From Marsupella aquatica (Eukaryota > Plantae > Marchantiophyta), in contig OZ316896.1 of NCBI GenBank assembly GCA_973895155.1, forward strand, positions 19,146,754 to 19,210,753: DNA of 64,000 nt, given 5' to 3'. The position numbers were made by a program, and so were the translations under genes. Below, one piece after another: positions 31,718-61,539 of the stretch. Position 1 is the stretch's first letter, and the number at the start of each line of letters is the position of its first letter. The notes below the pieces were generated by a model. That model was not told the origin of the DNA. It ran no database searches and saw only the letters and a program-made list of their open reading frames with translations.

Positions 31718-32700
31718 CAAGCTCAATACCCTTGCCTTGCACAAAAGATGTCATGACGCCCAAGATGTCATTAAGAGATAAAATGTCATGTCACCCACGA
31801 TGTCATTAAGAAAAAAGATATCATGTCACGATGTGGTTGAGACAAAAGATGTCACTATGCCCGAGATATCATTAAGAAAAAAGATGCATGTGTTAAATAT
31901 AAAATTATTATTAAGTACAAAATGATCCATAAGTAAAGTGATATTGTTAGTCATATATGTTGTCAAGTCTCTGTTGCACAAAACATGTTTGCATAAATAC
32001 ATCGTTGCATTTACAATATTGTCAAATAAAAGATATTGTTAAGTAAAATATGTGGTTGCTCGAATGATGTCATTGCGCAAAAGATATAGTTTACTAAAAG
32101 ATATTGTTCGGTGAAAGATGTCAATGCATCATAGATGACGTTGTACTAAAGATGTAGTTGAAAACGATCATGGTGCAAAATATATCTTTGTTAGAAAGAT
32201 CTTATTGTGTAAAAAACAATTGTCGATTGAAAGATGTCATGACACAAATAGAGGCGACAACCACCACCAAAGTACAACAAAATGAGAATAATTTCTTTAA
32301 TTGTTTTTGTAATTTATATCTTTTAAAGCCTTCCTTCTTTTTCACTTTTTTTTCTTGTCTTTGTCTTTGTCTCATTGATTAAATTGTGCACTATTTTTTG
32401 ATTATGTAAAATATATGTCATTAAACTCCTCTCATGATAGGATGCAGCACTTCCTTTGCATGGATGATAAGGCATGGGGCATAGTATGGCATGGATGGTA
32501 GAGGGAGGAGGATGGGGTAGCATGGATGGTAAAGGGAAGACTTTGTACTTTTCTTGTTTGGAAAAGAGTGTTCACACAAAACATAATTATTTTCTCTTAT
32601 TCCTTTCTCTTTTACAGTTCCCTTTTTTCAATTAAAAAGCCTCTCCAAATTTGAATGACGACCACTTCAAAAAGTGGCGCAACTCTGTATTATAGGAGTT
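31718..32700 (-). mobile_element. Degenerate non-autonomous Helitron, same family as 3541-5029, inverted
   Basis: Minus strand ends catcttttgtgcaaggcaagggtattgagCTTG|T (compare ttttgtgcaacgcacgggtattgagCTAG|T); shares ctcattttgtt.tacttt.gtggt and ttgcgcca...agtggtcg.cattcaaat blocks and the aagatgtc-type repeats. Confidence 0.7.
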
Positions 32701-35254: not shown

Positions 35255-35747
35255 AGGAGAACAAGAAGGACAGAACCATAGCCCTTCCGGAACTTGTGGA
35301 AGCTCAGGTCGCAAACAAAAGAGATGGTAAGTAACCACCGTTGCAATGGTCACACAACAACATCTGGTCAGCATCATCAATCCTGTGACACACCTTATAG
35401 GGATAATCCACCGGAGGATCCAAGTAGAAGTCACAATGGTAGGGTCCAAGTTAGGCAAGTGACAAGGGGCACAATTCTCAGCATGATCTTTGAGGGTACG
35501 GCCATCTGCTCCCTGTAACTCCAACACACATGAAGGATAGATGCACTTAACCCTGAGAATAATGCGACTGGTGGAGGTATCCAATGTGTCACTAGGCTGG
35601 CGCTGAAGGTAAACAAAATCACCCACATCAAACTGCCTCACCTTGGGCCTGAAGCTCCCTCCCCGTGTGTGCGCATATCTGAGTGTATCACGATGTTGGG
35701 CAATTGCTAGGTTGTCCATAGCCATAGGCATGACTCTACGAAACAAG
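35255..35747 (-). pseudogene. Gypsy integrase C-terminal region plus C-terminal PHD finger (frameshifted)
   Basis: LFRRVMPMAMDNLAIAQHRDTLRY..FDVGDFVYL.., then DYP(Y)[44 protein letters not shown] (C4HC3 PHD; first Cys reads TAT; a 4-bp duplication at 35327-35334 shifts the frame). Confidence 0.85.
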
Positions 35748-35975
35748 CACTAGAAGAAACCGAGCCATTCTGAGACCCAGCCTTACATGACTTGTGTGAG
35801 ACCTTTGAAAATAAGTGACTCCAAGGTTTAGGGTGTCATCTTTGTTACATCTTCTTGACTCACTTTTGGTGAAGTTCTGGGAAGTCATGTATTTAACTAT
35901 TGGGAAAGTTGCTTCTGTAACTGAGTTAAGGCAAGTATATTGAAGTTATATAAGTGACCATGACTTACATGATTT
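35748..35975. repeat. CACTA left TIR and subterminal repeats (core GTGACT/AGTCAT)
   Basis: catgacttg, aagtgactcc, ttgactcac, aagtcatg, aagtgaccatgacttac. Confidence 0.75.
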
Positions 35976-38802
35976 CCTTGCCCAATACATATGATTTTGG
36001 ATCCATCATATTAATCACATTATGTCATGCAATTATATATAGTTACCTCCCTTTGCTTTAACCATCACTGAGTTGCTCTTTATTGTTCCCCTGTAAGAAA
36101 GTATACATGACATTTTTACCCTAATTGAAGTTTAGGTAAGTAGGGCAAATTTGTGATTCTAGCTAGACAAGAACCAACCAAATTTAAGTTAACATTCATG
36201 TACACGGCCGCAACTGAGTTCAAAAAGGTGTGAAAATTTGTGCCATGCCCCCAAAAATAATGATGCACCCTAAACCCTAATACTCTACATACATAGTTAC
36301 CTTAAAAAAGTCACCACAACCAATTAGTGGTACTTGTCACATACTGCTCACACACATATTAAAACTCACTTCATCCACTAACTCATTTTAAAAATTTGCT
36401 CTGCATATATACCCCATAATTAGCCAATATCAAATGGAACCCCCTTCATATGGGAATATTGAAGGGCCCAATTTAGGACCTCTTTTTCCTTAAGTGCACA
36501 ATGCAATGCCGTTGCATCAATTTCTCTATCGGAAGCCCTCTTCCAATGAACCATGTTGCGCAATTGCAAGTTGATACAATTGGCAATAGCTTTTGCCCTA
36601 AACTTTTGACTGCCAAAAGCTTTTGTGGAGGGACTTGGAGAAAGAGAGAGTGCGCCCGCAAAGTGAGAGTCTTGTTGTTTCATGAGCGGGAAAGTTTTCA
36701 CATCTTGTCAAAGCAGTCGTCTAGTGTGCGCTTGCTTGGGTGAATCCTATCGCGCAACTTGCTATCGAGTTGCATCCCTTGCACACAGAGAGGTGAAGTG
36801 TTGTTGTTTGGCAAGCGGGAAGGTGCCACTCTCACATTATGAATTCCATCCTAGGTTTACCCGAGTGAATCCTATTGACCTACGACCTTCAAAGAAGTGT
36901 AGTGACAACTTTTGGTGTGCTCGCTTGCCCACTGTGGCCTATTCACGAGGAGTGGTCTTGTGCGGATTGGTGAGGTGGAGGTGGAGCAGTACTGTGGACA
37001 GGGGGCTCTGAAGGTTTATAAGGTGCATGCGGTGGGGGTCATCCAGGACATCATCATCGAACAAAGGGACGACGACGATTGTGAGTATGAGTTTGCATTG
37101 TTCTCTACTGGGTTCCGAATTGAGTTTTGAGCTGTGGTGGCTTAACAATGGTTGCGGGTGGGACCTCCCAGGGGCAAGGGGGCGGCGCCGAACGTTCCTA
37201 GGAGGATGCAAAATAGACTTGTGCTACATTAGGATCCACATCTGTGTCTCTGCCTTGCCTTATTGATGGGAATCTACAGTGCATTTGGATTGGGAAGGTG
37301 AGAGCTGTCTATAGAATGCGTCGAAGCTGATTTTTGTTCAGATTTGGTCTTATGGAGAAGTTGATTCTTCTCTGCATAATGCTGCCTTGCTGAGCTGCAT
37401 TGGGCTATGATGCGGGAGGTATTCATCAAACGGCAAGCTTTTGGCTGCAGCTACCAAGTGTAAGTTTAGGGAGTTGAGAGCGGAAGCTGCCAATTTGGAG
37501 TTGCGAGTGTTCAAATTTGAGTGAGTTGGGGTAGTGAACGTTGAGCATCAACCTGCAGGGAGGTGCGACAGAAGTCTACTTCTGTGGCAGAGTGAGCTGA
37601 GCAAGTGCAAACTACGGGAGTGGAGCATCGTGGCTGCAACATTGACCGGGACTTTTTTTGCGTTGGGCACTGTGAGTAAGGCAGTCTACGGAGGCGCGAA
37701 AGAGTCGCGAGGAGTCGAGTTCAGCTACGGCAGTATTCACTTCAGTTGTCTCAATGTGGTTGGCGTGAGCTGCAGGTGAGCTTAGCTGTGTGCACATTTC
37801 ATGTAAGTCAGGTGGTCGGTGTTTTAGGCATTGCGGAACTTGATTGACCACCCCATGGCTAAGGTTTAAGGTGCGGACTACAACAAATATGTGTTGTTGC
37901 TGAAAGTGTTGGTGGTGAGCGACAACTGGTATTGTTTCAGCTAAAGGGAGCACATTGGAGCTTGTGTATCCATGACCTGCGACCGATTGCGGCTGCCTGC
38001 TGTTACAATTGCCGAATCAATCACGCACCCAATCTTGCGGGCAGACACAACTTTGCGGGAGTGTTGAAGGTTTAGGGTGAGCAACAGCGGAGAGCTCATT
38101 GCTTGGTGGCAGGGTTGAAGGTGGATGATCGGGCTGCAAGGCCAACCGGGGACTTGTTTTGCATTGAGCGATTGCTGCGGATTGCTACGCAGCTTCAGTT
38201 AGGGCGGCTTGGTGCTACATCGGCACAGGTAAGGCTGCAATCCCCTATCGACGCGGACTCACCTCGTGACTGCAAGTATAGTTGTCTAGGTGATGTATGC
38301 ATTGCGTGTTTAGGGTCTAGGTGACATCGCTGCTAAGCAAAATTTGTGAGCTACCTAGGTCCATTGCCGAATGTTGCTTCCTTTAAATTACCTGGTGCCT
38401 GCTGTTACAATCGCCTGCTCAATCATGCACCCAATCGCCTGGAGCTCATTTGCCTGGAGCTTCATCCGTCAGATTCAAACTGTTATTGCTGCTTTGCCCT
38501 TTTGCCATGGGTTGCCGGCCTACCGGATGCTATCAACAGATTAAGAACAAGTCATATCCTAAGTCCCGGTGTTGCAGTGATGTCCCCGACCCTAAGATGC
38601 TTTCCAAACTCATCTTTCTTGTTTCCTGTTGCTGCTGATGTATGTATGTTCTCCCCTATTTTTGCTTACAGATTGGTCTCTCCACACTTCTTGCTTGACA
38701 TGATTGTTTTGCTCCTCCCTGTATCAGAACATGCCTTGTGCCCGGCGGTGGGGTGGGGGGGTGAACAGACGACCTTAAGGTTCACTACATTTCTAGGAAC
38801 TG

Positions 38803-38963
38803 TGCATCTTTCAGCTGATTTTAGCCGCAAGTTCCCTTGCTTTCCCCTGTTTTTGCTAAGATCCCTCCCACTAATCACATGCATCTTTCAGCTGATTTTA
38901 GCCGCAAGTTCCCTTGCTTTCCCCTGCTTTTGCTAAGATCCCTCCCCACTAATGACATGCATC
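38803..38963. repeat. Tandem duplication, 77-bp period x2, inside the CACTA
   Basis: tgcatctttcagctgattttagccgcaagttcccttgctttcccctg.ttttgctaagatccctccc starts at 38803 and at 38880. Confidence 0.92.
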
Positions 38964-40153
38964 CTTTACTTTTCTCGGTGGCCCGTGCGCCTGCCTTCCT
39001 ACTTTCGTTCTTATGGACTCTCCTTAGGTTTTCATTCACCTGGTTTTGGACTTTTTGCTCCGGTGGAATCTGTCTTGACAACTTGTGTTTGTTCTAATTG
39101 TTAATATCTCAAGAGGGTCATCAACTAAGCTGAAAGGAGTCAAAGCTAACTACAAGCTAGCAAATACAGAGAATGCTCCCAAGTCGAGTCAGGAGGAAGT
39201 TACTAAAACTAGACCTTCACAACTCTCGAAACTAGAAAGTGAAATTCAGCGTGAGACACGTAGCTGAAGGCCACAAGGATAACTATATGGCCACGCTGTC
39301 CCCCATTCAAGTCCAAAGTCCTCTTCAGATTGTCTGAACTCCTATTGAATGTATTGAATAATTATTTCATCACAGAAATTTTCAGAACAAACACGGAAGC
39401 ACCAGGGGGCTGAGGATTAGGTATTGAGGCTGAAGACATTGAGGTCATAAACTAGGTGTGGTTCGGGTGACAATGTTAGCAACTGATGCTTCTTCAGGGG
39501 AACTTCCCATGTGCAGTTTATCCACACATGATTGACTTTGGTTCTTGCTGTTTTTCTTTTGGTGTACTCTTGAGTTTGGTGTCACTCTATCCTTTCCTGT
39601 AGCCTCGAAATAGGAACACACCTGCTTAGTGGTCCCCAATCGCCCAATGATTTATAATGACTGTGTCTAGGTGATGTATGCATTGCGTGTTCATTCCAGA
39701 AGAATGAATATGTACACTTTGCACAAACCTGGACAGATCGATTTTGAATGTTATTTATCTGAGTTTCTGTTTGTGAGCTCTGACTTGGAGCCTTAACATT
39801 TGTGTTTCTGTGGGGCTGAGCAGAGTTTGTTCAGTCTAGAAGCTGCTGTACTGAAGTGATCAGCCTCCGGCTTGGAGGTGAATCTTCAATTTTTTGTGGA
39901 TCCGAGTGACTTCTGTCCAGCTGAGTTTTGCTTTGTCGGGACGATTGTGTTTGGCTAAGATGCTAGATTGTGGCTTGTCTTCTTGCTTCCAGCTTGTGTA
40001 TTTTCAATTAATAGAAGTTGGGAACGAAGTGATAATTGAATTTCCTTATATTAAGCATCTTCACCTAGAAACTCAATACATAAACTCCAGGATTCCCTCG
40101 GGACATAAAATGAGCCAAATTGTCTCAAAATTGGGAACCTGCACCCGCACTAC

Positions 40154-40496
40154 TCAAACAATTGTGTTGGGCTTGGTGGCCTTGTAAGTCTTCTTTAGCT
40201 TTCGCAATGGAGGTTGAATCTTGCAGTACGTCAAGGGGAACTTGATCTTTGAATCATGGAACTGCTTGGTACTTTCTCGCTTGCACAGAGAGACAGGGAC
40301 TGTCGTAGTCTTCATGATCTGGATGCAAGGGAACCGAACTCTATGACAAGAAGCCATCTCATCATACATCTGCTCTGCAGCTCCGTTTCTTGTGGTATCA
40401 CAATATTCCTTGTACATGTTGTGATAACCTGTACGACTCTGATACGTGGACCCAGATACCGAAGTTCTTAATTGTGGTGGGCTTCTTTTTGAAGAT
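40154..40496 (-). pseudogene. RPL18A: Captured terminal exon of 60S ribosomal protein L18a (eL20), frameshifted, inside the CACTA
   Basis: cag|[16 protein letters not shown] / [74 protein letters not shown] matches the plant L18a C-terminal half; begins at an AG acceptor; earlier exons not seen. Confidence 0.92.
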
Positions 40497-41504
40497 CTGG
40501 TAGACACATTATTCAGCATTTGCTAACTTCGAAACTAGAAGGGTAACACATTAAACAACAGAGAAACTCATAACATCCTCCTTTGGTCCTTCAGAGTCTG
40601 TACTTTGATTCTGAAGTTTGACTGAGTTTTTGTTTACTAAAAGAATGTGACTGTGTAAGAGTTCCGTTTGGCAGTGGATTGGTTGAAGCACTTCATGCTA
40701 GTGTGTTGTCCACAGCTCTTCAACCAGCTTTCGTCTTCCTTGTCTTTCACCACTTACGATGACATCAATTCAGCTAAGACCATAGAAGGTTCCAAAGCAT
40801 CTAACTTGTAAAATCGCATTTTGTTACATCAAGGACTAAGGTGTTGGGTGCCAAAGGAGACAGCACAACAAACACGCTGAAAAGACTTCAGGACTGGGTT
40901 CAACAAGGTAGTGAAGGTGCTTAGAGCCATAGTAAGTATGCATTCTGTATCTTTCTCTATTGATGTGAGCTTGTGCATAATGGGAGTTGTAGTTGGCAAG
41001 AGTTCCAAATATGAATAGATCCAGAAGTATGTGATCATGTACTTGCTCTATAAAGTTCTGAAGATATAAGCATTTTCTGTTAGACCAGGCAACTTGGGAG
41101 TTGGTAAGTGTCACCTGCATCTGAGGGGCTACACCGGGGCATCAGTGGAGGTTCACTTGCACAACACGACAACCAGTGAATTTTCTCTCTGCTGCAACCT
41201 GCAAGGTGAGACTTTCGGTCTTTCTGGATGAAAAAACAGGAGTTTAATATGATTGATATACATGTCCGTCGAGAATATGGGTTTATCACCAAGCTCTTTG
41301 TCTTAGGAAACTCATAAACTCAGAATCAAATATGTACTATGCACGTTTCATGCTATGTGTATACTATGACCTGTAGTTGGAACCAAGACAATGAGTGGGA
41401 ACTGATTAGTTTAGGTGGTTGCTGTTGGCGAGGCAAGTCGACCTCCTGCTCACCTTGCTCATCAAAGGACGTGAACAGAGGACATCACAACGAAAGCAAC
41501 ACTT

Positions 41505-41954
41505 ATGGTGAGGACCCGCAACGCTGAACATGTGCGACTTGCACGCAAGGCAGAGATGTTGCGCCTTGAGTATGTCAGACTTGGGATCCTTCCAGCCCAG
41601 TCTGCATGGTACTTTGAGTACCCTGTTGTTTCCAGGAACAACTATAGCCGGCCTCTACCTGCTTCAGTACCCTTCCCGACATCCTTGGTATTTGTGTCTC
41701 TTGTACATGACCCGCCACAAATTAGGTGCCAAGGGTGTGTACACAGTTGCCAATATGACTGTCCTGCCTGTAGGGCTTCTGGCCCAGAATTGGATGACCG
41801 TTCTCTTGGATGCCGATTTTTGCACAGAGCACAATGTATCATCTGGAACCACTCGCCATCCTGCAGTGTGCCTGGTGATGTCACTTGTCCTGCCCTCCCA
41901 GACCCCACCACCGGTGACTTTGGTGTCTACACATGTTTGGATCACATGCTCTAG
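41505..41954 (+). CDS. CACTA-borne 149-aa Cys/His-rich ORF, possible divergent PHD/RING-type zinc finger
   Basis: Intact ATG-to-stop ORF; ligand-like pattern CQGC..CPAC..CRFLHRAQC..YTCLDH; co-oriented with the transposase. Confidence 0.5.
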   Translation: MVRTRNAEHVRLARKAEMLRLEYVRLGILPAQSAWYFEYPVVSRNNYSRPLPASVPFPTSLVFVSLVHDPPQIRCQGCVHSCQYDCPACRASGPELDDRSLGCRFLHRAQCIIWNHSPSCSVPGDVTCPALPDPTTGDFGVYTCLDHML

Positions 41955-42569
41955 AGGACCACTTGTCACACCGCATGCACAGACCAGATACCATTGACCT
42001 ATAGCTTAACACTCTGACTTCAACACAGAGGATATTTACTTAAAATTTTGATGTATGAGCAATTTTGGGTCCAGGGTTTAGGGTCAACAGTACATAACTT
42101 ATATCCTATTATGCCTGCACTAAGCAAAATATCCTAATTTAAGAGGCTAGAAAACTCGCATAAAAGTCTCTATTGAAAGACTGCTTTCATGACTGCTTTA
42201 ACCTGGTGAACATTGCAACGTTGAATGAATTAATGGGCCATGTGATAATATGCAAAATGATTGATGCCTCACTTATTTGTCTCAGCCACTATCATAACCT
42301 ATTTAGGATGTATAAATTTCAACCCTTATGACACTGCTTCATACCAATCCTCTTTGAAGAATGCCTGTTTTACATGTGACGACTATTGTATGTGATTCAA
42401 ATGCATGAAATGTTGTTGCAGATCTCCTTTGGTGAATCATAGCCACAATTAAAATTGAGGTGTTGGTGGAGAAATTGTATTAGGGGATCAGTTTTGTGTG
42501 TGGGCTCAACATACCAAAAGTATGTGTGCTCTGCATCCTTGTGTGGCCATTCCAATTCATTGCAGTAGC

Positions 42570-42712
42570 AAATGCCTTTGTACCTTAAATGCTAAATATA
42601 TTTTACTTTCTGTGCAGTCTGCTAAATTGTAGAGTCTATCTAAATGCCTTTGTACCTTAAATGCTAAATATATATTACTTTCTATGCAGTCTGCTAAATT
42701 GTAGAGTCTATC
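42570..42712. repeat. Tandem duplication, 72-bp period x2, just upstream of the PHD ORF
   Basis: aaatgcctttgtaccttaaatgctaaatata..ttactttct.tgcagtctgctaaattgtagagtctatct starts at 42570 and at 42642. Confidence 0.92.
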
Positions 42713-42724
42713 TCATGCGCAGGC

Positions 42725-43405
42725 ATGGCACGGCCTAAAATTCAAGCCAAAAAGCGTGTGACAGAGGTGAGAAACACAGGTGTACTTGGGGCAGATGCTA
42801 CTAACTTCTCTGCAAGTCAGATTTTCCAGAAGGCAGCTCATTGTTGTGCCATTTGTGACGATGGTGGGGGCCTGGTCATTTGTGAGGGCCCTTGCATGAG
42901 GCATTTCCACCTCAACCCGGAGTCTGACCTTGCTGCAGAAAACAACTGTCCAGGGGTGGGCCTCCCGTCAACACACCAGGGAGACTGGATGTGCACTTAT
43001 TGTTTGGAGAAGCAGGCTAAGTGTGCACAGTGTGGGAAGTTGGGGTCCTATGAGGGCTCTGTTGATGCTGCAGCAAATGTTAGGAAATGTCCAGACCGTT
43101 TTTGTGTGAGATTTTTCTGTTTTGAGTGTTTGCCTGCTCATGCCACAGCTTGCCCACTTCATAGGTGCAAGGCATGTGGTGAGCATGATGATGACTACTG
43201 GACTGACATAGTCCACTGTGCTAGGTGTCCCACTATGTGGCACTATCATTGCCTAAAAGATCATCAAGCAGAGGGTTAGGCTTGTGACAGAGAAATCTAT
43301 GATCACTCTGCACATGGTGTTGATCGATGGATATTTTATTGTCATCGCCATGCCATTGATCCTACCTCGCGCACTCCTGTGAGAGATCACATATCTTGGC
43401 TGTGA
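42725..43405 (+). pseudogene. CACTA-borne stand-alone EDM2/NSD-type composite PHD-finger module (226 codons, one in-frame TAG at 43277-43279)
   Basis: CAICDDGGGLVICEGPCMRHFH..WMCTYC..KCAQCGKLGS..KCPDRFCVRFF..CPLHRCKAC..HCARCPTMWHYHCL; the frame continues past TAG to WIFYCHRHAIDPTSRTPVRDHISWL, resembling the EDM2 motif IYC..HEID....TPVRDH. Confidence 0.85.
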
Positions 43406-43997
43406 AGCTGAACATTGTACATGCACAGTGCACCTGATGTGGATGTACTATTTTTTGAGATTGCAGAGATTCCAATTTTGAAAAGGAGTTGGGTAGGCGA
43501 GTTTATATAGGCAGCACTTATCTTGTGCTCTGGCGTCAGTGGCTGGGTACATGCCTATACAAACTTATCCTTACAAGCCTTCTTGGAAGTATTTAGGCTG
43601 AGTGGTCATTTTCATAAACACTTTCATCACACTGCTAAATTAAAATAAGACTTCTAAGTTGTAAGCGTATAAATTATCAGGCATGCAATTAATCAAATTG
43701 CCCTATAAGTTTGTCATTGAATGTATCCTCCTTTACAACAAAATATGTATGTGCCATGACAAGTTGGTTGCACTTCATTTCACCACGGATATGGATTTTG
43801 TAGTATATATTCAAACAATGTCCTGCATCCGTGCAGGTGCCTAGTACGTATTGTTCACATATCCCTTGTACCTATCAAAATCGGACCTGAGCACCAGTGG
43901 GCCAGATCAACTCAAAAAGCAGGAATTTTGTTGTCCTTGTATTGTCAGGTGAACCCATTCTTCCAAAATTCACTGTCATCACGTAGGGTGTGTGTAC

Positions 43998-44870
43998 ATG
44001 GAGCCTGGTAAACGTAGAAAGTGTGACCACCCAGCAGTGTTTACAGGGGTCAGAGCGATTTTGGTCCATGGCCAGCATGGGTTGACCAAAGTGCATTGGC
44101 CAACTGTACAGAAACGATTCTCTGAGCTCCATGGCACTGTAGTTCAGGACATCACTCCAGAGACTACACATGTTGTTGCAGGGACATGGCTATCAGTGAT
44201 AAAGAAGTGGTCATGGTCCTACATGAATTCTGCAATTACTAAGCAAGGCCTAAAAGTAGTTGAGGCCTCTTGGATCACAGATTCCATAGCACATAAGATT
44301 GTACAGGATACTGAGCAATATGAGTTGTGGGAGGATGAAGAAGCTACTGCATCAGCTTGGGCTGAACAAGAAGTCTGGGAAGCAAAGGCACGGCTTGCTG
44401 ATCTCCAATATGGACCTGTACTCAACAAAGGACAGAGCTCTACAAGGCTGAAGAGTATGTTGGCTGAGGAGACGAAGCAACCAACCCCCATTCTGAAAGG
44501 GCTGAGCATGGTATTTGTGGAGGCGGGAATTGGAGAGGTTAAGTGCAAAGTGTACAAGTCCACAGTGCTTGACCTAGGTGGGACAGTGGAGGAGAATATA
44601 ACAGAGGACACCACTCATGTCATTACTAAGTCATATCCCAAAGCCTGCCGCAAGTTTGGGAAGGGAGACATTCGCTTTTATGTCATGTCCCATAATGTGT
44701 TTGTGGTTTCATATGCTTGGCTTGTGGAATCAGTAGCAGCTGGGAAGCGTCAAAACCCAATGGACTATGATCTTTTTGAGGCCTGGCCACGGAAGGGTCA
44801 GGATCCTTACAGAGAGGACTATGAGACAACAAGTGAGGAATGGGTCATTAGCGATTCTGAATCAGAGTGA
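43998..44870 (+). CDS. CACTA-borne tandem-BRCT domain protein (290 aa, intact, intronless)
   Basis: Two BRCT-pattern repeats: FTGVRAIL..HGTVVQDITPETTHVV..VVEASWITDSI..EQYEL and LKGLSMVFVEAGIG..LGGTVEENITEDTTHVI..VVSYAWLVESV..MDYDL; N-terminal basic PGKRRK (NLS-like). Confidence 0.85.
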   Translation: MEPGKRRKCDHPAVFTGVRAILVHGQHGLTKVHWPTVQKRFSELHGTVVQDITPETTHVVAGTWLSVIKKWSWSYMNSAITKQGLKVVEASWITDSIAHKIVQDTEQYELWEDEEATASAWAEQEVWEAKARLADLQYGPVLNKGQSSTRLKSMLAEETKQPTPILKGLSMVFVEAGIGEVKCKVYKSTVLDLGGTVEENITEDTTHVITKSYPKACRKFGKGDIRFYVMSHNVFVVSYAWLVESVAAGKRQNPMDYDLFEAWPRKGQDPYREDYETTSEEWVISDSESE

Positions 44871-45303
44871 GGAGTAGTAGCATCAGTTTGGACACAAGTT
44901 TTTTTGTATAATTCAGATCATTGAAATAAATGTGATCTTTGAACTAATGTACCTTGTTATGGTTGGTGGCAGTTGGGCTTATTTTACTGTTGGCGGATTG
45001 TTGTTTCCTGCTGCCTGGGGGTGTCACTGTAAACGTACATGCAGAGGCGGTACATTTGAGGACAGCGGAGGAGGTGGTGACACCCTCCAACATTTAGAAA
45101 TTTTGTGTCATTCACTTGACAATAGGTACACTACTTGCGAACCTGTTTTTTTCTTTTGGGGTGGTTTAGGGTTTGTGAGAATTTAGTACACGTTATGTTA
45201 ACTCTTTTGGCAGATACAGTCAGGGATATATGGAACACAAATACCACCATTAGGCATCCTTGTTCACTGCTGTCCATGACTGCAGAGCTCCCAGCCTGTT
45301 ACA

Positions 45304-48300
45304 ATGCACCCTGGTCACCACCCTCCCCAGACCCAGCCCAGGGCACAGGCACTGCCTTTGCATCATCCCACAAGGATATCACGCCATGATAATAAGCTTT
45401 GGCAGCGTGAAAGGTTACGAACCAGACTTTCAGGAGCCAGTAGGATGAGATGTCCTTGTGCAATCTGCCAAGGATCCCGTACCAAGGGTCTGAATGAGGT
45501 TTGGCGGCATATCGCGGTTCATGGAAGAGATCCACGACATCGAGTTTGGAATGATCCTGTAGAGGAAGATTCTTCCGACGAGGAGTGGAGGTTAGAATTT
45601 GATGCTGCCAATGCTGCAAGACGGGCAAGTGAGGTTCTGCCTGGTGCATTTGAAAATGTTGTAGCTGGTCTCTGTGGGTTGTCAGCTCTCCAACGGGATG
45701 GTGCTCAGGCAGCACCACGTGACGAAGGAATTCATGTGGAAGAGATGGTGAGAGACATCTTCCAAGACTTGGATGCATTTCATGATGGGCTGGACAATGA
45801 AGAGGATACGGCTGCAGATGCAAGTGTGCCCCCTGTCGAAGAGCCTCTTGATGAGTTTGAGATAGGGCAGGAAACCCCTGGGCATGATGGGATGTTTGGC
45901 TCTCCCCTGCAAATACAGGAAGGCAGGAAGTCTTTGTACCCCGGTAGCAAATGTTCTAAACTGGGATTTGTCATCATGTTCCTGAACATTTGCGGCAACC
46001 ACAATGTCCCCAACGTTTTGGTTTCTGAGTTGTTGGCATTCTTGCGAACAACTGTGCTACCAGATGGTAATATTTTGCCCAAGAACATGTACGAGGCAAA
46101 AAGATGCATATCTAATCTTGGATTGAACTATGATTCGATCCATGCCTGTCCTGATGGGCATGTTCTTTTCAGAAAGGAGTATAAAGAATCGTTGACATGC
46201 CCTAAGTGTGGGAAGCACAGGTATCGGAACTCAGGAAAGTCTATGGTTCCCGCCAAGGTACTTCGTCATTTTCCACTCATTCCCAGACTTCAGCGGATGT
46301 TCAGAAGCCGTGCCATCTCGGAGATGATGACTTGGGCAACTGACAAGAAAAGTGATGATGGGCTACAACGACATGCTGCAGATTCAAGGCAATGGAAACT
46401 CATAGATGAGATGTATCCCGAATTTGCTGCTGAGCCGAGGAATGTCAGGCTTGGGCTGTCATTGGATGGGGTAAACCCATTTGGAGACAAGAACAACAAA
46501 TTTTCATGCTGGCCTGTAACTATTTTGAATTATAACCTTCCTCCTTGGATGACTACAAAGCGATTTTTTGTTCTGATGGTCCTACTGATACCAGGGCCAG
46601 ACAGTGCTGTATCTGCCAACATAGATGTGTTTCTGGCTCCCCTAGTGGAGGAATTGAGAAAGCTTTGGGAGGAAGGAGTTCTCACATATGATGTCCTACA
46701 GAGGCTTGGGAGGTTAAACCCATTCATCCTTAGAGCCATTGTCATTCTGACTATAGCTGACTACCCAGCCCATGGGATGATATCAGGCCAAACAACAAAA
46801 GGATATTGTGCTTGTACTATCTGTGGGCGCAATGTCACCAGTGAGTACTCCAGAGCCCTGCAAAAAGTGATATACATGGGCCATCGTCGTTTTCTGAAGG
46901 CAGATCACCCTTACAGAGAAAGACAGGCACTGATTGCACACTTTGGCAATGAGATTGAGCAACGTGGACCCCCGGCACGAGTGACCAAAGAGGAGATCAG
47001 GCAGTGGGGAGCACTGAGGGATGACTATATCAAACGAGGGGGCAGGGAAGATGGAGTGAGTGATCCAATAAAGCGATATGGTGTAAAAAGACTGAGCATA
47101 TTGGACTTGGAGCTCAAGTACTGGAGGGTAAGCCTCTTGGAGTTGATGCTAATTGGGATACATGTTTTGGTTCAGAGCATGTGCATTCATTTCGAAGAGA
47201 GAGACTAAACTTGAGGCATTTCCTGACGCTTTTGCATTGCAACGATGCAGGAGTTTGAGCCAAGCAAACATAACATTGATGTTATGCACATTGAAAAGAA
47301 TATTTGTGAGAGTCTACTCAGATTCTTGTGTGGAGAGAAAGACACTGGTTCAGTGAGATTGGATCTTGAACAGAGGGGAATGAAACCCCATCTTTGGTTG
47401 AGGCCACATGCCCACAGAGCTGATGTGCTCTTGAAGTACCAAGTGCCCTATGTTCTGACAGACACAGAGTGGGAACTATTTGTGTAGAGGTTGAGTTCTT
47501 TGAAGGTTCCTTCAAACTATGGCAGTGCTTTCAAGAAGCATATCATGACTAGAAAGCTTGGTAGTATGAAAAGCCATGACTACCATATGTTGATGCAACA
47601 GGTGTTGCCTTTATGCCTGAGGGGCCTGTTGCAGAAGCCTGTTCGTACTGTGATCATGCGACTCAGTGATGTGTTTCGTCGTATTTGTGTGAAGGTTTGG
47701 GATGAAACACACTTCCCACAACTGACAGAAGATGTCGCTCAGGTGCTGTGTGACCTGGAGATTTATTTTCCTCCCGCATTTTTTGATGTCATGACCCACC
47801 TACTTGTCCATGTTGTGGAAGAGCTACACCAATTTGGGCCTGTGAGTGCTCGTTGGTTGTACCCTTTGGAACGGTACATGAAGCTACTCAAAGGTCACGT
47901 GAGAACATATTACAAACCTGAAGCAAGCATGGCTAAAGGTTACATCAAGGATGAGACTCTGGGATTTCTGACCGAATACATAGCACAATATGAGCATGTG
48001 AAGACCAGGGTGTGGAATTCTGATGAGGAGGAAGGGGTGGTAGGTGAAGTACTGGAAGGGGCTGCAACCACAAAGAACCTGACCATATCTATGAGAGACT
48101 TGGCACATGACTTTGTATTGCACAACACTGTGGTGATGGAACCCTGGATACAGTGAGTGCATACATGTGCTATAATCCAGTTCATGAGCTTAAATATTGT
48201 GTTCGTGTGGTTTTCTCCTTCAGCCTGTTCATGTTTACCCAAGCTAATGCTGTGTGGTTGTTCGTTCAGGGAGTATGAGTCATTGAAGGCGGCCCATCCC

Positions 48301-49035
48301 ACTGCAGGAACAACTTTTCCAGGTTTCATGGAGTGGATCAGAGTGGCAATTAGAGAGCATCACGAGACCCACCCAGACATGGATGCAGATGTTTACCTAC
48401 TGTCTAATGCCCCTAGCCTGAAAGTGAAGACTTACAAACGGATGAGAGCATATGGGAATCACTTCCGAGTGAAGGATGGTGACAGTGCCTACAGGGTGAC
48501 GAATGATTGCGGGCTCATCACTGTATTTGAGCAACAGAGCCACAATCACGACAGGGCCTGGATGGAGATGGGATATGTGGGAGAATTAGTTGACATATGG
48601 GCTCTGGACTATGGGGCGGTGTCTAGTCCTGTGATTCTTATGAAAGGTTCATGGGTGCGGCAGGATTGGCTTGGTAACAGGGCTACCATGAAGAGAGACA
48701 ACGACGGTTTCTTGCTGGCCAATTTCAGAGGGAAATTGCCCGAATGGTCTGAGCCATTTGTGTTTCCTAGTCAGGTGGAGCAAGCTTTCTTCCTGGATGT
48801 GGAAGACTCCCCAGGTTGGCGTGTAGTGTGTCATAAACAGGCCAGGCAACGCCGGATGGAAGGATCAAACCTTGAGTTTCATTTACACTCTCATAGTGCC
48901 TTTGATCGTCGGCGTTCAGACCAAGTGCCTGTAGTTCATGATAGCGGGGACTTCATTCCTGTGACAAGGGTAGATGCATTTGCTGAAGGAGGCGAATTCA
49001 GAGATGTAGATGCCAACAGTGTGCCTGTGCCATGA
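45304..49035 (+). pseudogene. CACTA TnpD-like transposase (transposase-associated, Transposase_21, DUF4218 and DUF4216-type regions), 3 exons, one in-frame stop
   Basis: RCPCAIC; IHACPDGHVLFR..CPKCG..KVLRHFPLIPRLQRMF; RNVRLGLSLDGVNPF; NYNLPPW; IDVMHIEKN; MKSHDYH; FPPAFFDVMTHL; RWLYPLER; EPFVFPSQVEQAFF. Exons 45304-47127, 47251-48152, 48270-49035; TAG at 47485-47487. Confidence 0.93.
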
Positions 49036-49191
49036 GTAATGTGAATTGTTTGCATAGACATTAGTGAGGGGAAGGATGTGTAATAAAGTAATTCTGAAGC
49101 AACACAGATGTATGGATGGATGCCTGGTGATTGTGGTTGCATTGTGTTATACGGGGTGACCATAGATGACATGTTTTTGTGGTCCAGTAGG

Positions 49192-52100
49192 ATGGAACAG
49201 AGTGACACAGAGATGTGTGAGTATGAAAGGAAAGCTATGGAACAACGAGCATACGTGAAAGCCAAAATCGCAGAACTGGATCTGGAAAAGGATGTGGCTG
49301 AATTGTAAGGGAACGATTCTCAACTACACCCCTCCGCTGAGTTTGTGTGACATGAATAGTTCAATGTGGCACTGAAATTGTGACTGTATTCTCATATTGG
49401 AATGTCGCAGAGCCACAGCATTTTCAAAGAAACAAAAGGAGTACGCAAGAAGGGTGACCAGCACTATCTCTGGGCCTGTGCGTCGGAGTGACAGGTTGAG
49501 CAAGAAGGTCGTACCTACAATGGCAGAATGTGGAGATGACATTGATGCTGCACAGGTGGGTGCAGACACTAGACAAGAAGATGCAGATGATGAGTATTTT
49601 CCAAAGGAAATGGATGAGGATGGGGGTTATGAAGATGAATACATTGCAGAGCAGCCCCAAAAGAAACATGTAAGTAGTTTTCCCAACAAGGTTTTGAGTT
49701 AAAAACTCTTGTTTAGAGGTTTCATATGTTCAGTACTACACATATGTACCTTGCTTAGTTCCTGACATTGTAGTTGGTGATGTGATGCAGCGTCCTGCCA
49801 GTTCTGTTTTGCCTTCGAAGCCTGTGCATGCACCATACCAGCAGGGGGGGCTGACCTCTGATCAAGGTTGGCGAGGTGGTAGTAGTGGTAGATCCCAGGC
49901 TGGTGCCCAATACTATGGCAGGGGGCAAGCTCTAGGTTATGCCCGTGGTAGAGGCAGAGCAGGTCCAAACCCACAATCTCGTGGGTATGGACGTCCACCT
50001 CAACCATGGGGATGTGAGTATATATCTATATGCCAGTTCTTTGTGAAGGCATGGCACTCCTGAATTTCAGACTGCATATCAATTTTTGACATTGTTTGGG
50101 ATGTATTGGATTCAGACAACATGAAATTCTGTCCACCTGCCATTGCATGCAGATTCTGCCCAACCTGATTGGGCAAATGCTAGTAATGATCAGTTCCAAT
50201 GTCCACAAGGACAGACATGGGTTGAACCAGGTTGGGAGGATGGTGGTGGGTCGTGGAATGAACAAGGTTGGGAAGGTGGTGAAGGTAATTGGCAGGGATA
50301 TCAAAATTCAGTACCTACAAACGCTGGAAGAGGAGCAGGTAATGTCTGATCTTGTCAGCAATGGAAGAACTCATTATATGTGGAGTCCATTCACGTGGGG
50401 GGGACTCTGCACATGTATAATGATAGAAAATGTATGTGTGCAGGTTGGACAGTCGAACCATCGACTCAAGTATTCACTAATGCCCCTATGCAGATGCAGC
50501 ACGGAAGGGGGACAGGTATATCGGTGAATGTTCAGTTGTTTTCCTACAGTTTGTACTTAGTTTTCAGTACATATGTTTGCACACACATACCTAGAAAGTG
50601 ACATCATCCGGCCCCTGTACTAGGCTGGACAGGTGGTCCAGGGTCGCAACAATTTCAGAGTGCAGTCCCTGCACAGGCATCTACAGGCAGAGCTACAGGT
50701 ATGTATGTTTGAAGAATTTTTCTTGAAGTGAAGCATTGAATGTTGCCGTCATCCATTCTGCTATATGTAGTTCTCAAGCATGAATGGCATTGTATTTTCC
50801 CAGGTGGCTTCAGAACCCCAGGTAGGGTGAATGAAGGGGTGGCCAATACAACGCCCAGTACTACCGAGAGCAGTGCACGAGGGGAGGTGACAAAGAAAGG
50901 GAACGTAAAGTTGAATGAGAGACAATGGGTGGATGCTGAGTGTCCTCGCAAGAACCGATGGCATGCTGATTTGAAAGCTGAAGTATTGCGTTGGTTAGAT
51001 GTGAGTGTTATTAATTTTAAAAAACAGCATCCAAAAGATTGGAAGACTGTATGTGAAAATGTTGCTGCCAAATGGAATTATGTGGGCAGTGATGATGGCG
51101 TGGACATAGGTTGCCTAGAGAGTACAGCAGGTAAAATTATCAAGCAAGAGAGGTGGAGAATGCATAAGGCTTGGAAGGAAGGTGGGGAGAAGCCAGATAT
51201 GCCTCCACCAGCCAGTTGTGATGATAAAGTGTGGGCAAGGTTAGTAGCTTATTTTGTAACAGATGCTTCAAAAAAGAAGAGTTCACAGATGACCGAGGCC
51301 AGGTTGAGTGTTCAGAACCCTAATCTGACAGGAAGGACCGGCATTGCACCGACAGCTAAACGTTTGGTAAGAATGAATGGCCTAGCTATGTAATTTATGC
51401 TACACTATGTACTATTTTTTAGTGTAAACCCATACATGTAAACTTTGTTTTTTAGTGTACGTTCCCTGAATATTGATCGATAACTTGTGTTTGCCATGCA
51501 TGTGCAGAAAGCCCAATTGGGGCAAAGCCCTTCAAAAGAAGAGTTGAGGGCTGAAATTGTGAACACCCGGGCTCAAGAGGGTGCATCTGAATCCTCCAAG
51601 CATGTAAGTTATATGAGTTCTGATTGGTAATTGAATGACCTGCGTTGAATTTCAGGTGTACACTGTATATAACATTGATTGTGCATATATTGCCCAACAT
51701 TTCATATGGAGTGATTGAACCTATACCCCTGTGTCATGTAGGGAGGTGGATCTTCACTTACAGAGATAAGTGGTCGTTTGAAGGCTGTCGAAACATGTCT
51801 TCCAGAGATCAATGAACGTTTGAATTCATTGACTGACTTGTTCCATGTGAACTTCAAGACATTAATGGAAGCTGTTGTGTCGGTGAGAGATAAAATTGAT
51901 TCCAATTCTGCAGGAGTTCCACCATCACCACTTGAGGTGGCAAAGTCGATGCACTCTTCTGGCATGCCAACGACATGTAGGCTTGAAGGTAAGGCCTTTA
52001 CAACTGTGTGGGATATGATTATTAAATGTATAGTTTGAATTGACATTGTTTGTTGAATGTGTTATTTTCAGTAACATATATTGTGGTTGTTGTGTCCATA

Positions 52101-52898
52101 GAGAATAAGACAGGTGCTACAGAGAAGAAGTATGAGAACCTGGCAAATACTCGCTGTAATTTAGAGGCAACAAAGTTGCAGTCTGTACAAGCAACTTGTT
52201 TGACAGAGGGCAGTCAACCATGTTTGGATGAGGATGACATTGGCAAGGGAGTGGATGATATCAATGTTGGGGCAAATGAGGATATCAGCAAGCATGACAA
52301 TGATACCATTGAGCCAGATTCATGCTATGTAGATCTTGACTCCATTGCAGAGATAAATGATTTGCAGAATGTATCATTCTCAATGACAGGTGTGCCTCTT
52401 GTTGAGATAAATCCAACCAAAGAGTTAGTTGGTATGACACTCCCAGGTGATGAACCTGCTACTGTGACAGTCCTAACAGAGGAACCTACTGAGCCTAGCT
52501 TCACTATTGTGAAGAGAGGAAGCATGCGCACACGAAGCAAGTCTGCTGGTGGGAGCAGAGCCACGTCAAAGGTTTCATACAAACCTCCAAGAACAGTGCT
52601 GGCAGAAAGATCTAAGGTGGAAGTGGGGAAAGCACCTAATGCTGAGGGACAAAGTGGCTTGTTAGCTGTTGATGAGAGTGGAACACGAGTAGGATTTGCC
52701 AGAGTGCAGGTTGGTTCCACAACGTTCCATGGCAAGAGGATTCCCCCAGGTTATTCAGTAGTGTTAGTCACATTACTAGTGAAACCTAAAGCTGTCCTTC
52801 CCATTCCAAACACAAATGATGATCCTCCTCAAAAGACACTTGGAGATGCTGCAGGTTCTTTGGTATTATGGCCAAGCAAGTTCATAGAGGATCCATAA
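49192..52898 (+). CDS. CACTA TnpA-like (ORF2) multi-exon gene; exon structure only partly resolved
   Basis: N-terminal CEYERKAMEQRAYVKAKIAELDL; Ptta/En/Spm-like WARLVAYFVTDASKKKS..ARLSVQNPNLTGRTG; C-terminal FHGKRIPPGYSVVLV..LPIP..TLGDAAGSLVLWP typical of plant CACTA ORF2; several GT-AG flanked segments. Confidence 0.75.
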
Positions 52899-53394
52899 CA
52901 ATGTCATGCCATTATTTGTTTGTAGTGTGAGTCATGTTATGTAGATTTTAGATGTCAAGAAGCAGTACAAGAATCATGTCCTCTTGGAGATTCATAGTAT
53001 CATGCATGTGCTTTCAGTTATCTCATCCTACAGTCATCAATTATGAGTTCCTGTTTTGTCTAAATTACATTGATCACATTGTAAACTATTCCATTGGAAT
53101 TCAAATGATCTTCATTTTTTAGCAAGATTGTGATTGTGTTTAATTCTTATGAATGTTTTATGTAGGATTTGCTTATATGATGTTTTGTTTCATGTGGATG
53201 TCATTCATGCTATGTTCATTTCTTGTATTCAATGTGTTATATTTCTAAAGTTAGAACATCAGGTTTCTATGTATTGTAATGTCGAGTGCTCTCTCTTCTT
53301 ATGAACTGTCCCTCTGTGTTCATTAGTCATGGTTATAACTTGCATGTGAACCTTATTAGTTATAAACATGAGTATATAGAGTCCCAAATGGTTC

Positions 53395-53753
53395 TGTTGT
53401 GTGACGCGGGCCAGGGTCTCCATTGGTCTCTCCTGTGACACTAAATAGTCACACGCTAGTCGTTGTTGAATGCGGGTAAGTCATGTATGTGACTTACGAT
53501 GTGACTCGCTGAAGTCATATTGCAGTCACGTCGAAACAAGGCTAGACTCCACAATAAAGTCACAGATCAGTCACAAATGGGTATCAAGCAAGTTGCAAAG
53601 CCCAGTATCAATAGTGACTTCCATTTTTTGGTCTCAACTTTTGCAACTCCAAGGGTCACAGCGTGGGTCAAGTCACGTTGAGTCACAATGAAGTCACATG
53701 AGCCAAAATGAGTCATATATTGCGGTCTCAGTTCACCTCGGATTCTTCTAGTG
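53395..53753. repeat. CACTA right subterminal repeat array (core AGTCAC/GTGACT, both orientations) and right TIR
   Basis: More than 10 copies, e.g. tagtcacac, aagtcatg, tgtgactta, cagtcacg, aagtcacag, gagtcacaa, aagtcacat. Confidence 0.85.
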
Positions 53754-53756
53754 AAG

Positions 53757-54650
53757 GCAGCCCTCTCTGATATGATAGTAGACTGGTCAGGTTTCCGTTG
53801 AGTCCAAGTCCACCACCTGAAGCATTTGAGAAGCAATAGAAGATGGAGGAACTGGATGCCGACCAAAAAGTAGAAAATAAGGAGAGAAGTTGGACAAGGA
53901 GGCATGGTTGGACATGCGGTACCCCATGGCAATGTAAGGCAGTGCCAAGTCCCAATCTTTCTTGTTCTTGGTGAGGCATATTTTCCGCAATCCTTGTTTG
54001 CAGGTCTGTACCATCCGCTCAACTAGACCATCCGCTTGAGGATGATCCCTTGAAGTTCTACGATGATCAATGAGTGCATGGTCAAGTAGGTCCTGAAATT
54101 CTCCTCTGAATTTAGAGCCCTGGTCAGTGAGGCACTCTGCACAAGCCCCAAACCTGCTAAGCACTTGCTGGAGAAAAGCTTGGCTAGTGCTATGTGAACT
54201 CTTATCAGGCAAGGCAACCAATTCAATCCACTTAGAAAAGTGCTCAATCATGATCATTATATAGAGGTTACCCCTGGATGTCAAAGGTAATTCTCCAGCA
54301 AAATCACAAGATCAGCGGTAAAACAATCCCTGAATAGGGAGTGGATGAAGTATAGGCTGTCGAGAGGAGAATGAGGTTCTTACTCTGTCACACTGTTCAC
54401 ACCTAGCTATGATATCCCGAATCTGAGCATGCATCCCCTTCCAATGGTAGTGAGGAGCCATCAAACTATAAGTACGCTTGATTCCAAAATGCCCAAGTTC
54501 AGAATGTACTTTTCTGACCAAGTCAGCCCTATCAGCAATTGGTGGAACCACTCTCTCCCCTTGTGGAAAACAGCAGACTAGGTGATCTCCCTTCCACATG
54601 TAACGCTTAGACCATTGTTGTATCTGATCCCTTTGAGTAGTGGTCATGCT
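53757..54650 (-). pseudogene. Gypsy integrase, HHCC zinc finger and DDE core (disrupted)
   Basis: VHSELGHFGIKRTY..HYHWKGM..ARCEQC; SCDFAGELPLTSRGNLYIMIMIEHFSKW; CLTDQGSKF; HPQADGLVERMVQ; FSPYFLLFGRHP. Confidence 0.93.
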
Positions 54651-54668
54651 TGGTGGGTACTGCTTGTG

Positions 54669-56044: not shown

Positions 56045-56189
56045 ATTACAGAGTACCTCTCCCCCCCAACACTAGGAGTGAAATGTAGAGTGGAGAGGAT
56101 GGGTAAATGTACTTCATTAGGGTGCCAGGTAAGAACTTCATTAAGGCGAGAGGCTGGGTCACCCATAGTAGGAACAGTATGCATCTGGA

Positions 56190-61530: not shown

Positions 61531-61539
61531 TGTCCAAGT

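What the first reader, a model, noticed from the sequence alone, without database searches (positions are those of the whole stretch)
43998..44870. Intact tandem-BRCT gene immediately upstream of the CACTA transposase
Seen: an uninterrupted 290-aa ORF with two BRCT-pattern repeats and an NLS-like PGKRRK, co-oriented with TnpD and ending ~430 bp before it. Established: BRCT domains mediate DNA-repair protein interactions. By eye the second repeat (VFVEAGIG..K.Y...V..LGG.V......THVI...W..S..G) looks most like the Pol X/Pol lambda BRCT that docks onto NHEJ factors. BRCT is not a standard CACTA gene. Inference: the element may encode an adaptor that recruits or modulates break repair at excision or integration sites.
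Basis: partly seen in the sequence, partly recalled or inferred. Interest (0 to 1): 0.72.

Follow-up and report, generated by a model that had tools for sequence, protein, structure and literature searches.

The report
Plant transposon carries doubled repair domain
An 18-kb cut-and-paste jumping gene of a plant carries, just ahead of its transposase, an extra gene for a small protein of two BRCT domains that were likely copied from the DNA-repair enzyme polymerase lambda and would, if the untested idea holds, let the element influence how its own DNA breaks are repaired.

Summary
Observation confirmed. The 290-aa ORF has two BRCT domains. It lies inside an 18,006-bp CACTA element (35748-53753, terminal inverted repeats, AAG target duplication) inserted in a Gypsy integrase. 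Public runs hold many sister copies covering the gene. It belongs to an unnamed family of 264-321-aa two-BRCT proteins (9 further clusters, about 21-61% identical), so it is not a fresh copy of a named host gene. The two repeats are each other's closest match and are predicted to be unpacked. They lack the phosphopeptide pocket and share Pol lambda's loop length; repeat 2 keeps a conservative version of Pol lambda's Ku-docking motif. A Pol lambda origin is likely but trees do not prove it. Against a conserved Ku role, only 4 of 29 family repeats keep the motif. No distant homolog could be tied to a CACTA element, and expression and binding are untested. The element also carries a standalone NSD-type PHD-finger gene; this copy's PHD and TnpD have private stops. 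No paper (six searches) or earlier scan note described this; the scan had noted moss CACTAs with a SET exon.

The parts
35745..35747 (.). 3-bp target-site duplication AAG (left)
35748..35777 (+). Left terminal inverted repeat, begins CACTAGAAGAA
   Evidence: (pair I18, 30 nt, 80% complementary)
40154..40519 (-). Captured fragment of ribosomal protein L18a (passenger)
   Evidence: Pfam PF01775 E 3e-18
41505..41954 (+). 149-aa Cys-rich ORF of unknown kind
   Evidence: no Pfam match at E<=0.05
42725..43405 (+). Standalone NSD-type triple-PHD gene, 226 codons, with an in-frame stop at 43277-43279 that sister copies lack
   Evidence: variant row 43279; 5 standalone homologs of 217-245 aa, 37-81% identical
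43931..43948 (+). Predicted splice acceptor of a 5'UTR intron; an in-frame stop right behind it excludes in-frame fusion with upstream exons at this site
   Evidence: sequence pattern only, no RNA
43998..44870 (+). Two-BRCT gene, 290 aa: basic leader, BRCT 1, helical/disordered linker, BRCT 2, acidic tail
44031..44333 (+). BRCT repeat 1 (about residues 12-112); Trp-rich alpha2 region conserved in the family; Pol lambda docking motif absent
44484..44783 (+). BRCT repeat 2 (about residues 163-262); K182/V185/Y186 align with human Pol lambda R57/L60/F61
44925..44930 (+). AATAAA, candidate polyadenylation signal of the BRCT gene
   Evidence: pattern only
45304..49035 (+). TnpD transposase, predicted exons 45304-47127, 47251-48152, 48270-49035 (1163 codons); one internal stop at codon 687 (47485-47487) that sister copies lack
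   Evidence: Pfam Transposase_21 E 2e-70, DUF4218, DUF4216; model; variant row 47485
49376..52898 (+). TnpA-like gene, several exons, boundaries approximate
   Evidence: Pfam Transposase_24 E 1e-4, below the curated cut-off
53354..53723 (.). Right subterminal GTCAC repeats (13 in the last 400 bp against 0.9 per 400 bp inside)
53724..53753 (+). Right terminal inverted repeat, ends TTCTTCTAGTG
53754..53756 (.). 3-bp target-site duplication AAG (right)
53757..54257 (-). Gypsy integrase core of the interrupted retrotransposon; its C-terminal part lies at 35150-35747
   Evidence: a contig in run X6 joins 35734 to 53753, an empty-site relative

Best explanation
The ORF is a two-BRCT gene inside a plant CACTA transposon family, likely kept as an accessory gene and likely derived from the non-catalytic front end (basic leader plus BRCT) of DNA polymerase lambda by capture and internal duplication, and it would act at Ku-bound breaks made by the transposase. 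The predicted mechanism: TnpD excises the element and leaves a double-strand break; Ku loads; repeat 2 of this enzyme-free protein docks where Pol X BRCTs dock. It would thereby compete with the host's only Pol X, or tether end-joining factors, and bias how donor and target sites are repaired. The more diverged repeat 1 would bind another partner. Shown: gene, fold, position inside the termini, presence in sister copies, a diverged protein family. Inferred: Pol lambda origin (about 0.7) and maintenance by the element (about 0.75). Untested: expression, Ku binding, any effect on transposition.
For: Inside TIRs with a perfect 3-bp TSD. Runs X1, X2 and X5 cover 30 of 30 bins of the element with contigs in all identity classes, and near-identical contigs cover both ends of the BRCT gene and the spacer to TnpD. 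Full-length homologs at 60% and 54% keep length, start and acidic tail. Nine further clusters of 264-321-aa two-repeat proteins exist; of those looked up, none has a specific host-gene name. 17 of 43 non-family hits of the profile search are Pol lambda-type BRCTs: 3 carry Pfam Pol lambda polymerase domains, 1 more through a cluster member, the rest assigned by score. Repeats 1 and 2 are each other's best profile match, score 140 against 102 or less, so a single-BRCT donor. beta1-alpha1 segment of 27 residues: Pol lambda 18/18, family 14/27, other BRCTs 3/27. S/T-G phospho-pocket: others 13/27, Pol lambda 0/18, family 0/27. Docking motif [RK]xx[LIVM][FWY]: Pol lambda 13/18, family 4/29 including this protein's repeat 2, others 0/43. 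The family starts with a basic leader 12-15 residues before the BRCT, like plant Pol lambda (PMC4444747 passages). Precedent from passages read: Pol lambda R57/L60 dock on Ku, and a catalytically dead Pol lambda impairs gap filling in an R57-dependent way (PMC12056208); Arabidopsis Pol lambda binds Lig4/XRCC4 by its BRCT and has a reported role at transposon excision sites (PMC4444747).
Against: The docking motif is lost in 25 of 29 family repeats, including all repeat-1 copies close to this protein and repeat 2 of the 54%-identical P0003. R/K at the R57 site (6/12 in repeat 2) is not far above other BRCTs (14/43). Reciprocal profiles hardly separate donors for repeat 2: Pol lambda 66, BRCA1-like 62, TOPBP1-like 57 bits; hhalign gives BRCA1-like 102 against animal Pol lambda 101. 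Trees are weak (76/73, 82/68, 54/18) and the AU test rejects no rival donor: BRCA1-like p 0.067, REV1 0.19, PARP-like 0.14. Pol lambda is only rank 16 in the structure search (Z 11.0). The genomic context of every distant homolog is unknown. An intact frame in this copy is expected by chance (P about 0.8 at 0.5% divergence). The 40 shown of 92 variants in low-depth runs gave 10 synonymous and 22 non-synonymous codons, no clear sign of selection.
Confidence: 0.42

Rival explanations
1. The gene is a maintained accessory gene of the element, but the BRCT pair has been repurposed as a protein-binding scaffold for something other than end joining, for example transpososome assembly or chromatin and anti-silencing work together with the neighbouring PHD-finger protein.
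For: What the family conserves most is a Trp-rich alpha2 region in repeat 1, a linker helix and a C-terminal motif with an acidic tail, not the Ku-docking helix. A second conserved, chromatin-reader-like gene lies directly upstream. Earlier scan notes report moss CACTAs with a SET exon (unchecked).
Against: Repeat 2 of this protein and of P0002 keeps the docking motif, which is absent from 43 of 43 other BRCTs. No partner is identified.
Confidence: 0.3
2. The gene is a passenger: a member of an unannotated host family of small two-BRCT genes in seed-free plants, picked up Pack-CACTA style and amplified with a young element family without serving it.
For: The same element carries an L18a fragment. 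Sister copies are only about 0.5% from this copy, too young for decay. The context of the distant homologs is unknown. Two single-BRCT relatives are annotated genes in Riccia fluitans. The variant test was inconclusive.
Against: The homologs are many, mutually 20-60% diverged, unnamed and mostly on short contigs, which fits a transposon-borne family better than a conserved host gene. No near-identical host donor appeared. The gene is whole, co-oriented, with its own predicted acceptor and poly(A) signal.
Confidence: 0.21
3. PHD and BRCT ORFs are relics of a captured BRCA1/BARD1-like gene (PHD plus tandem BRCT) that binds phosphopeptides at damaged chromatin.
For: PHD lies upstream of two BRCTs; BRCA1 chains top the single-sequence PDB search at E about 0.007; repeat 2 scores equally with BRCA1-like first repeats; AU p 0.067.
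Against: The two ORFs and their homologs are separate proteins with their own starts and ends. The PHD is NSD-type. The phospho-pocket is absent in 27 of 27 repeats. The repeats resemble each other most and are not predicted to pack: rmsd 13-14 A to BRCA1-type tandem pairs.
Confidence: 0.07

Closest known systems
Plant En/Spm (CACTA) elements with TnpD and TnpA
   Same: CACTA...TAGTG termini, 3-bp TSD, subterminal repeats, TnpD (Transposase_21, DUF4218, DUF4216) followed by a TnpA-like gene.
   Different: Carries whole extra genes (two-BRCT, NSD-type PHD, a Cys-rich ORF) between the left end and TnpD.
N-terminal BRCT of DNA polymerase lambda (Pol X), which docks on Ku70/80 (PMC12056208; plant enzyme PMC4444747)
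   Same: Basic leader then BRCT, 27-residue beta1-alpha1 segment, no phospho-pocket, conservative match to R57/L60/F61 in repeat 2.
   Different: No polymerase or lyase domain, BRCT doubled, motif lost in most repeats, at most 35% identity to any Pol lambda BRCT.
KAONASHI/VANC genes of VANDAL Mutator-like elements (captured Ulp1 domain kept as a third gene; review PMC13317346, passages)
   Same: A host domain captured by a plant DNA transposon and conserved as an additional gene.
   Different: Other superfamily and other domain; those act in anti-silencing, and a repair domain is not mentioned (BRCT 0 occurrences in the review's main text).
Pack-CACTA transduplicated fragments (same review)
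   Same: CACTA ends enclosing host-derived sequence; the L18a fragment fits this.
   Different: The BRCT gene is whole and has a deeply diverged family, on an element with its own transposase.
Transposase-Ku coupling: PiggyMac, Sleeping Beauty, P element (PMC4148214, passages)
   Same: Cut-and-paste systems that engage Ku at their breaks.
   Different: There the transposase or the ends bind Ku directly; here a separate element-encoded BRCT protein is proposed.

Membership tests
CACTA/En-Spm element | Termini CACTA...TAGTG as inverted repeats | tested here: met
   35748 and 53753
CACTA/En-Spm element | 3-bp target-site duplication | tested here: met
   AAG/AAG
CACTA/En-Spm element | TnpD transposase and TnpA | tested here: met
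   Transposase_21 E 2e-70; Transposase_24 E 1e-4, under its cut-off
CACTA/En-Spm element | Subterminal repeats at both ends | tested here: inconclusive
   GTCAC 13 at the right end, 2 at the left, 0.9 per 400 bp inside
Autonomous CACTA copy | Intact TnpD | tested here: not met
   Stop at codon 687 in this copy; sister contigs differ at that place
BRCT domain | Profile match above the curated cut-off and BRCT fold | tested here: met
BRCA1-type tandem BRCT phosphopeptide reader | S/T-G pocket in the beta1-alpha1 loop | tested here: not met
   0 of 27 family repeats, 13 of 27 other BRCTs
BRCA1-type tandem BRCT phosphopeptide reader | Head-to-tail packing with a short linker | tested here: not met
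   About 50-residue linker, pTM 0.44, rmsd 13-14 A to tandem pairs; predicted model only
Pol lambda/Pol X-type BRCT | alpha1 R-x-x-L-F Ku-docking motif | tested here: inconclusive
   Repeat 2 has K-x-x-V-Y, repeat 1 lacks it; 4 of 29 family repeats
Pol lambda/Pol X-type BRCT | Longer beta1-alpha1 segment without phospho-pocket | tested here: met
   repeat 2 has the Pol lambda length, repeat 1 is two residues longer
Pol lambda/Pol X-type BRCT | Supported clade with Pol lambda BRCTs | tested here: inconclusive
   One side of a branch with plant Pol lambda at 54/18; rivals not rejected
Pol lambda/Pol X-type BRCT | Binding to Ku70/80 or XRCC4-Lig4 | not testable with these tools
   No plant Ku sequence was available for complex prediction
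DNA polymerase lambda (enzyme) | Pol X catalytic domains | tested here: not met
   None in the ORF; homologs end with an acidic tail
Maintained transposon accessory gene (KAONASHI-like) | Present in sister copies | tested here: met
Maintained transposon accessory gene (KAONASHI-like) | Same position in diverged element families, with purifying selection | tested here: inconclusive
   Diverged intact homologs exist but no DNA context was retrieved; variant test uninformative
Maintained transposon accessory gene (KAONASHI-like) | Expression | not testable with these tools
   Only contigs of runs not on record as RNA were available

The most novel reading that the evidence does not exclude
A lineage of CACTA transposons in seed-free plants captured the Ku-docking BRCT of polymerase lambda long ago, doubled it, and uses it as an enzyme-free decoy or adaptor that steers repair of its own excision breaks, for instance away from gap-filling end joining and towards sister-templated repair that restores the donor copy. 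It would be one of a kit of accessory genes that also includes an NSD/EDM2-type histone reader.
Probability: 0.25. Interest if true: 0.87.

Novelty: new variant of a known kind. Interest (0 to 1): 0.62.

Why it matters
Cut-and-paste transposons depend on host break repair, and the pathway chosen decides host survival, excision footprints and copy gain. Known accessory genes of plant DNA transposons act against silencing. An element-encoded mimic of a repair factor would be a different strategy and is directly testable: one small protein, three predicted docking residues, and a known dominant-negative precedent in dead Pol lambda. Even without that function, the window shows an unnamed BRCT family and a multi-gene CACTA layout that I did not find in print.

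Tried and rejected
No whole genome is held for this window, so copies could not be surveyed directly. Locus scans for DNA context found nothing: metagenome contigs with two alignments, viral contigs with the BRCT alignment and with TnpD. The prokaryote-genome scan did not run with the diverse alignment and was not repeated. The search for longer, fused or donor forms found none among 6099 candidates of 549-2000 aa, weak evidence; plant Pol lambda may fall under that length. No RNA holder was listed: no evidence either way. Runs with small shares (X6, X8-X10) gave mostly short low-depth contigs; thin cover of the BRCT part in X6 is not evidence of absence. Contig depths at the BRCT flanks and TnpD were alike in X1 (1554-1782) and about ten times those of 35994-37536 (151); the tool warns that depth is no copy number, so this is a hint only. 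Complex prediction of the BRCT protein with TnpD residues from 45901-47106 gave no verdict (score 0.01, mark 0.34, alignment not used). The first fold on 3 sequences was uninformative (pLDDT 36). Foldseek on the two-domain model lists tandem BRCTs with rmsd 11-23 A and does not identify the donor. The ESM Atlas gave only generic BRCT clusters under 0.9. The bacterial promoter scan is irrelevant here. An in-frame PHD-BRCT or BRCT-TnpD fusion was rejected on sequence grounds. No second copy lies in the window. Earlier-findings look-ups by sequence, place and words showed no BRCT-carrying element.

Full report
Observation. window:43998-44870 is an open 290-aa frame with two Pfam BRCT stretches (PF00533 E 2e-13). 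It ends 433 bp before the first ATG of the TnpD ORF on the same strand. A fold on an 18-row alignment gives two confident domains joined by a helix and a disordered stretch (mean pLDDT 79, pTM 0.44). The top structural matches are BRCT domains: PARP4 BRCT Z 14.8, rmsd 1.8 A over 95 residues; Pol lambda in DNA-PK Z 11.0, rmsd 2.1 A over 94, rank 16. BRCA1-type tandem pairs align only at 13-14 A, so the model does not pack like them.

The element. An inverted pair at 35748-35777 and 53724-53753 begins and ends with the CACTA termini and is flanked by AAG on both sides. The flanks are the two parts of a Gypsy integrase on the minus strand, and a contig in run X6 joins across the empty site. The element is 18,006 bp. 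In order it holds an L18a fragment (minus strand), a Cys-rich 149-aa ORF, an NSD-type triple-PHD ORF, the BRCT gene, TnpD and a TnpA-like gene. A three-exon TnpD model has 1163 codons and one internal stop. The host was not determined. A seed-free land plant is my inference from the plant-type TnpD/TnpA and from the nearest named BRCT relatives (Riccia fluitans and a Mesen1 gene model).

Sister copies. Ten of 12 listed runs, in 8 studies, hold the stretch or part of it, and none is on record as RNA. I laid 4 of them on the whole element. X1, X2 and X5 cover 30 of 30 bins and X6 covers 27, with contigs from 99+% to under 90% identity. Near-identical contigs cover the BRCT start with its upstream spacer (X1, 43459-44007, 3 differences), its end with the downstream spacer (X6, 44701-45064) and the spacer into TnpD (X5, 45035-45370). 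No single contig bridges the genes. At 43279 and 47485 the whole listed depth of X1, X2 and X5 differs from the window, so the stops in the PHD and TnpD genes are private to this copy. This copy is about 0.5% from its sisters; at that distance an intact 290-codon frame is expected by chance with P about 0.8, so intactness alone shows nothing. A second laying on the ORF with 4 low-share runs gave short low-depth contigs. The 40 shown of 92 variants, mostly from one 83%-identical contig, gave 10 synonymous, 22 non-synonymous and no nonsense codons, and the 6 listed indels were 3-base or compensating pairs. This is inconclusive for selection.

The protein family. Two full-length homologs at 60% and 54% came from the word search. 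The profile search over 1.84 billion representatives gave 60 hits; I classed 17 as family and 43 as other BRCT proteins. With cluster members there are 9 further clusters of two-repeat proteins of 264-321 aa, about 21-61% identical to the query, plus fragments. Those looked up are from Logan, ENA, JGI/IMG or NCBI with no specific gene name. The closest members keep the start position, a linker helix, a motif after repeat 2 and an acidic tail, which marks a standalone protein. Such divergence without decay implies long selection on the protein, whoever its owner is. I could not retrieve DNA around any of them, so linkage to CACTA is shown only for this element family.

Origin of the domain. Of the 43 non-family hits, 17 are Pol lambda-type N-terminal BRCTs: three have Pfam Pol lambda polymerase domains, one more through a cluster member, the rest score 57 bits or more against a 4-sequence anchor profile. 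Family repeats 1 and 2 are each other's best profile match (140), so the pair arose by duplication of one domain. Next come the Riccia single domains and Pol lambda for repeat 1, and BRCA1-like (102) level with animal Pol lambda (101) for repeat 2. Two features separate the classes (27 of 29 family and 27 of 43 other rows had the anchor columns filled). The beta1-alpha1 segment has 27 residues in 18/18 Pol lambda, 14/27 family and 3/27 other domains. The S/T-G phosphate pocket occurs in 0/18, 0/27 and 13/27. Human Pol lambda docks on Ku through R57 and L60 (PMC12056208, sections 7 and 12 and passages; numbering). The motif [RK]xx[LIVM][FWY] occurs in 13/18 Pol lambda, 4/29 family (including K182-V185-Y186 here), 1/7 unlabelled single domains and 0/43 others. 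Trees of 98 and 60 rows (38 long, partial, near-duplicate or unlabelled rows dropped for the second) put the family on the Pol lambda side at 76/73 and 82/68. The best tree has family plus plant Pol lambda as one side at 54/18, and no rival donor is rejected. A Pol lambda origin is therefore likely, not proven. All comparison domains were preselected by the family profile, which limits the test.

Mechanism. Passages of PMC4444747 state that Arabidopsis Pol lambda starts with a 13-residue NLS and a 96-residue BRCT, binds Lig4 and XRCC4 through the BRCT, and has a reported role at transposon excision sites (the primary papers cited there were not read). PMC12056208 shows that a catalytically dead Pol lambda impairs gap filling and survival in an R57-dependent way. 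PMC4148214 passages list transposase-Ku couplings. An enzyme-free, doubled Pol lambda front end on a transposon would thus most simply be a decoy or tether at Ku-bound excision breaks. I put this at 0.42, because most family repeats have lost the docking motif and nothing functional was measured. Repurposing as another scaffold (0.30) and hitch-hiking of a host gene (0.21) are the main rivals.

The PHD neighbour. The 226-codon ORF matches NSD-like PHD families in 6 of 6 aligned members, below curated cut-offs for this copy. It has 5 standalone homologs of 217-245 aa at 37-81%, and its best Atlas hit is a streptophyte NSD-like PHD cluster at 0.93 (run with homolog P0087). That this is the PHD module of EDM2 is my recollection and was not tested against an EDM2 sequence. 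PMC3632883 passages describe EDM2 as a PHD-repeat protein affecting transposon silencing.

Novelty. Searches for CACTA plus BRCT (7 unrelated papers), BRCT/EnSpm/accessory gene, CACTA in moss or liverwort with extra genes, transposon-encoded BRCT and CACTA with Ulp1/PHD/anti-silencing found no description; I saw listings and abstract starts only, except where stated. The 2026 review on gene capture (PMC13317346, passages) has no occurrence of BRCT in its main text. The library lacks most subscription papers and repeat-database entries, and no supplements were read, so an entry there cannot be excluded. Earlier scan notes describe moss CACTAs with a SET exon (unchecked) but no BRCT gene. Verdict: a real, apparently undescribed accessory-gene variant of a known transposon type, with a plausible but untested repair-modulating role; interest 0.62.

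Noticed in passing
window 42725-43405 (+): Standalone NSD-type (EDM2-like, recalled) triple-PHD gene inside the same CACTA, with its own conserved family of 217-245-aa proteins; a candidate histone reader or anti-silencing factor that may deserve its own follow-up.
   Followed up: partly
window 41505-41954 (+): 149-aa Cys-rich ORF inside the element, no Pfam match; covered by contigs in all four runs; may be a third accessory gene.
   Followed up: partly
window 40154-40519 (-): Ribosomal protein L18a fragment captured inside the element.
   Followed up: partly
window 35150-35747 and 53754-62500 (-): Degenerate Gypsy retrotransposon interrupted by the CACTA; its integrase ends in a PHD-like stretch (Pfam E 0.01), and a 617-aa coiled-coil ORF of unknown kind lies at 57895-59748.
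   Followed up: no
window 3228-5030 and 31717-32694: Long inverted repeats with 35-bp tandem arrays about 27 kb apart, enclosing host-like genes; possibly two copies, or the ends, of another element.
   Followed up: no
window 35994-37536: The left 1.5-4 kb of the element is much more thinly covered than its core in the laid runs, hinting that this left arm is a minority variant (depth is no copy number).
   Followed up: partly
proteins P0031, P0060: Riccia fluitans has small single-BRCT proteins (143 and 141 aa) closest to this family; they could be the unduplicated state and the easiest place to test transposon linkage.
   Followed up: partly
protein cluster of P0027: The scallop Argopecten irradians has about ten near-identical BRCA1-like tandem-BRCT proteins of varied length on several contigs, suggesting a separate amplified BRCT gene.
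   Followed up: no
window 42570-42713, 38803-38946: Recent 72-bp and 77-bp tandem duplications in non-coding parts of the element.
   Followed up: no
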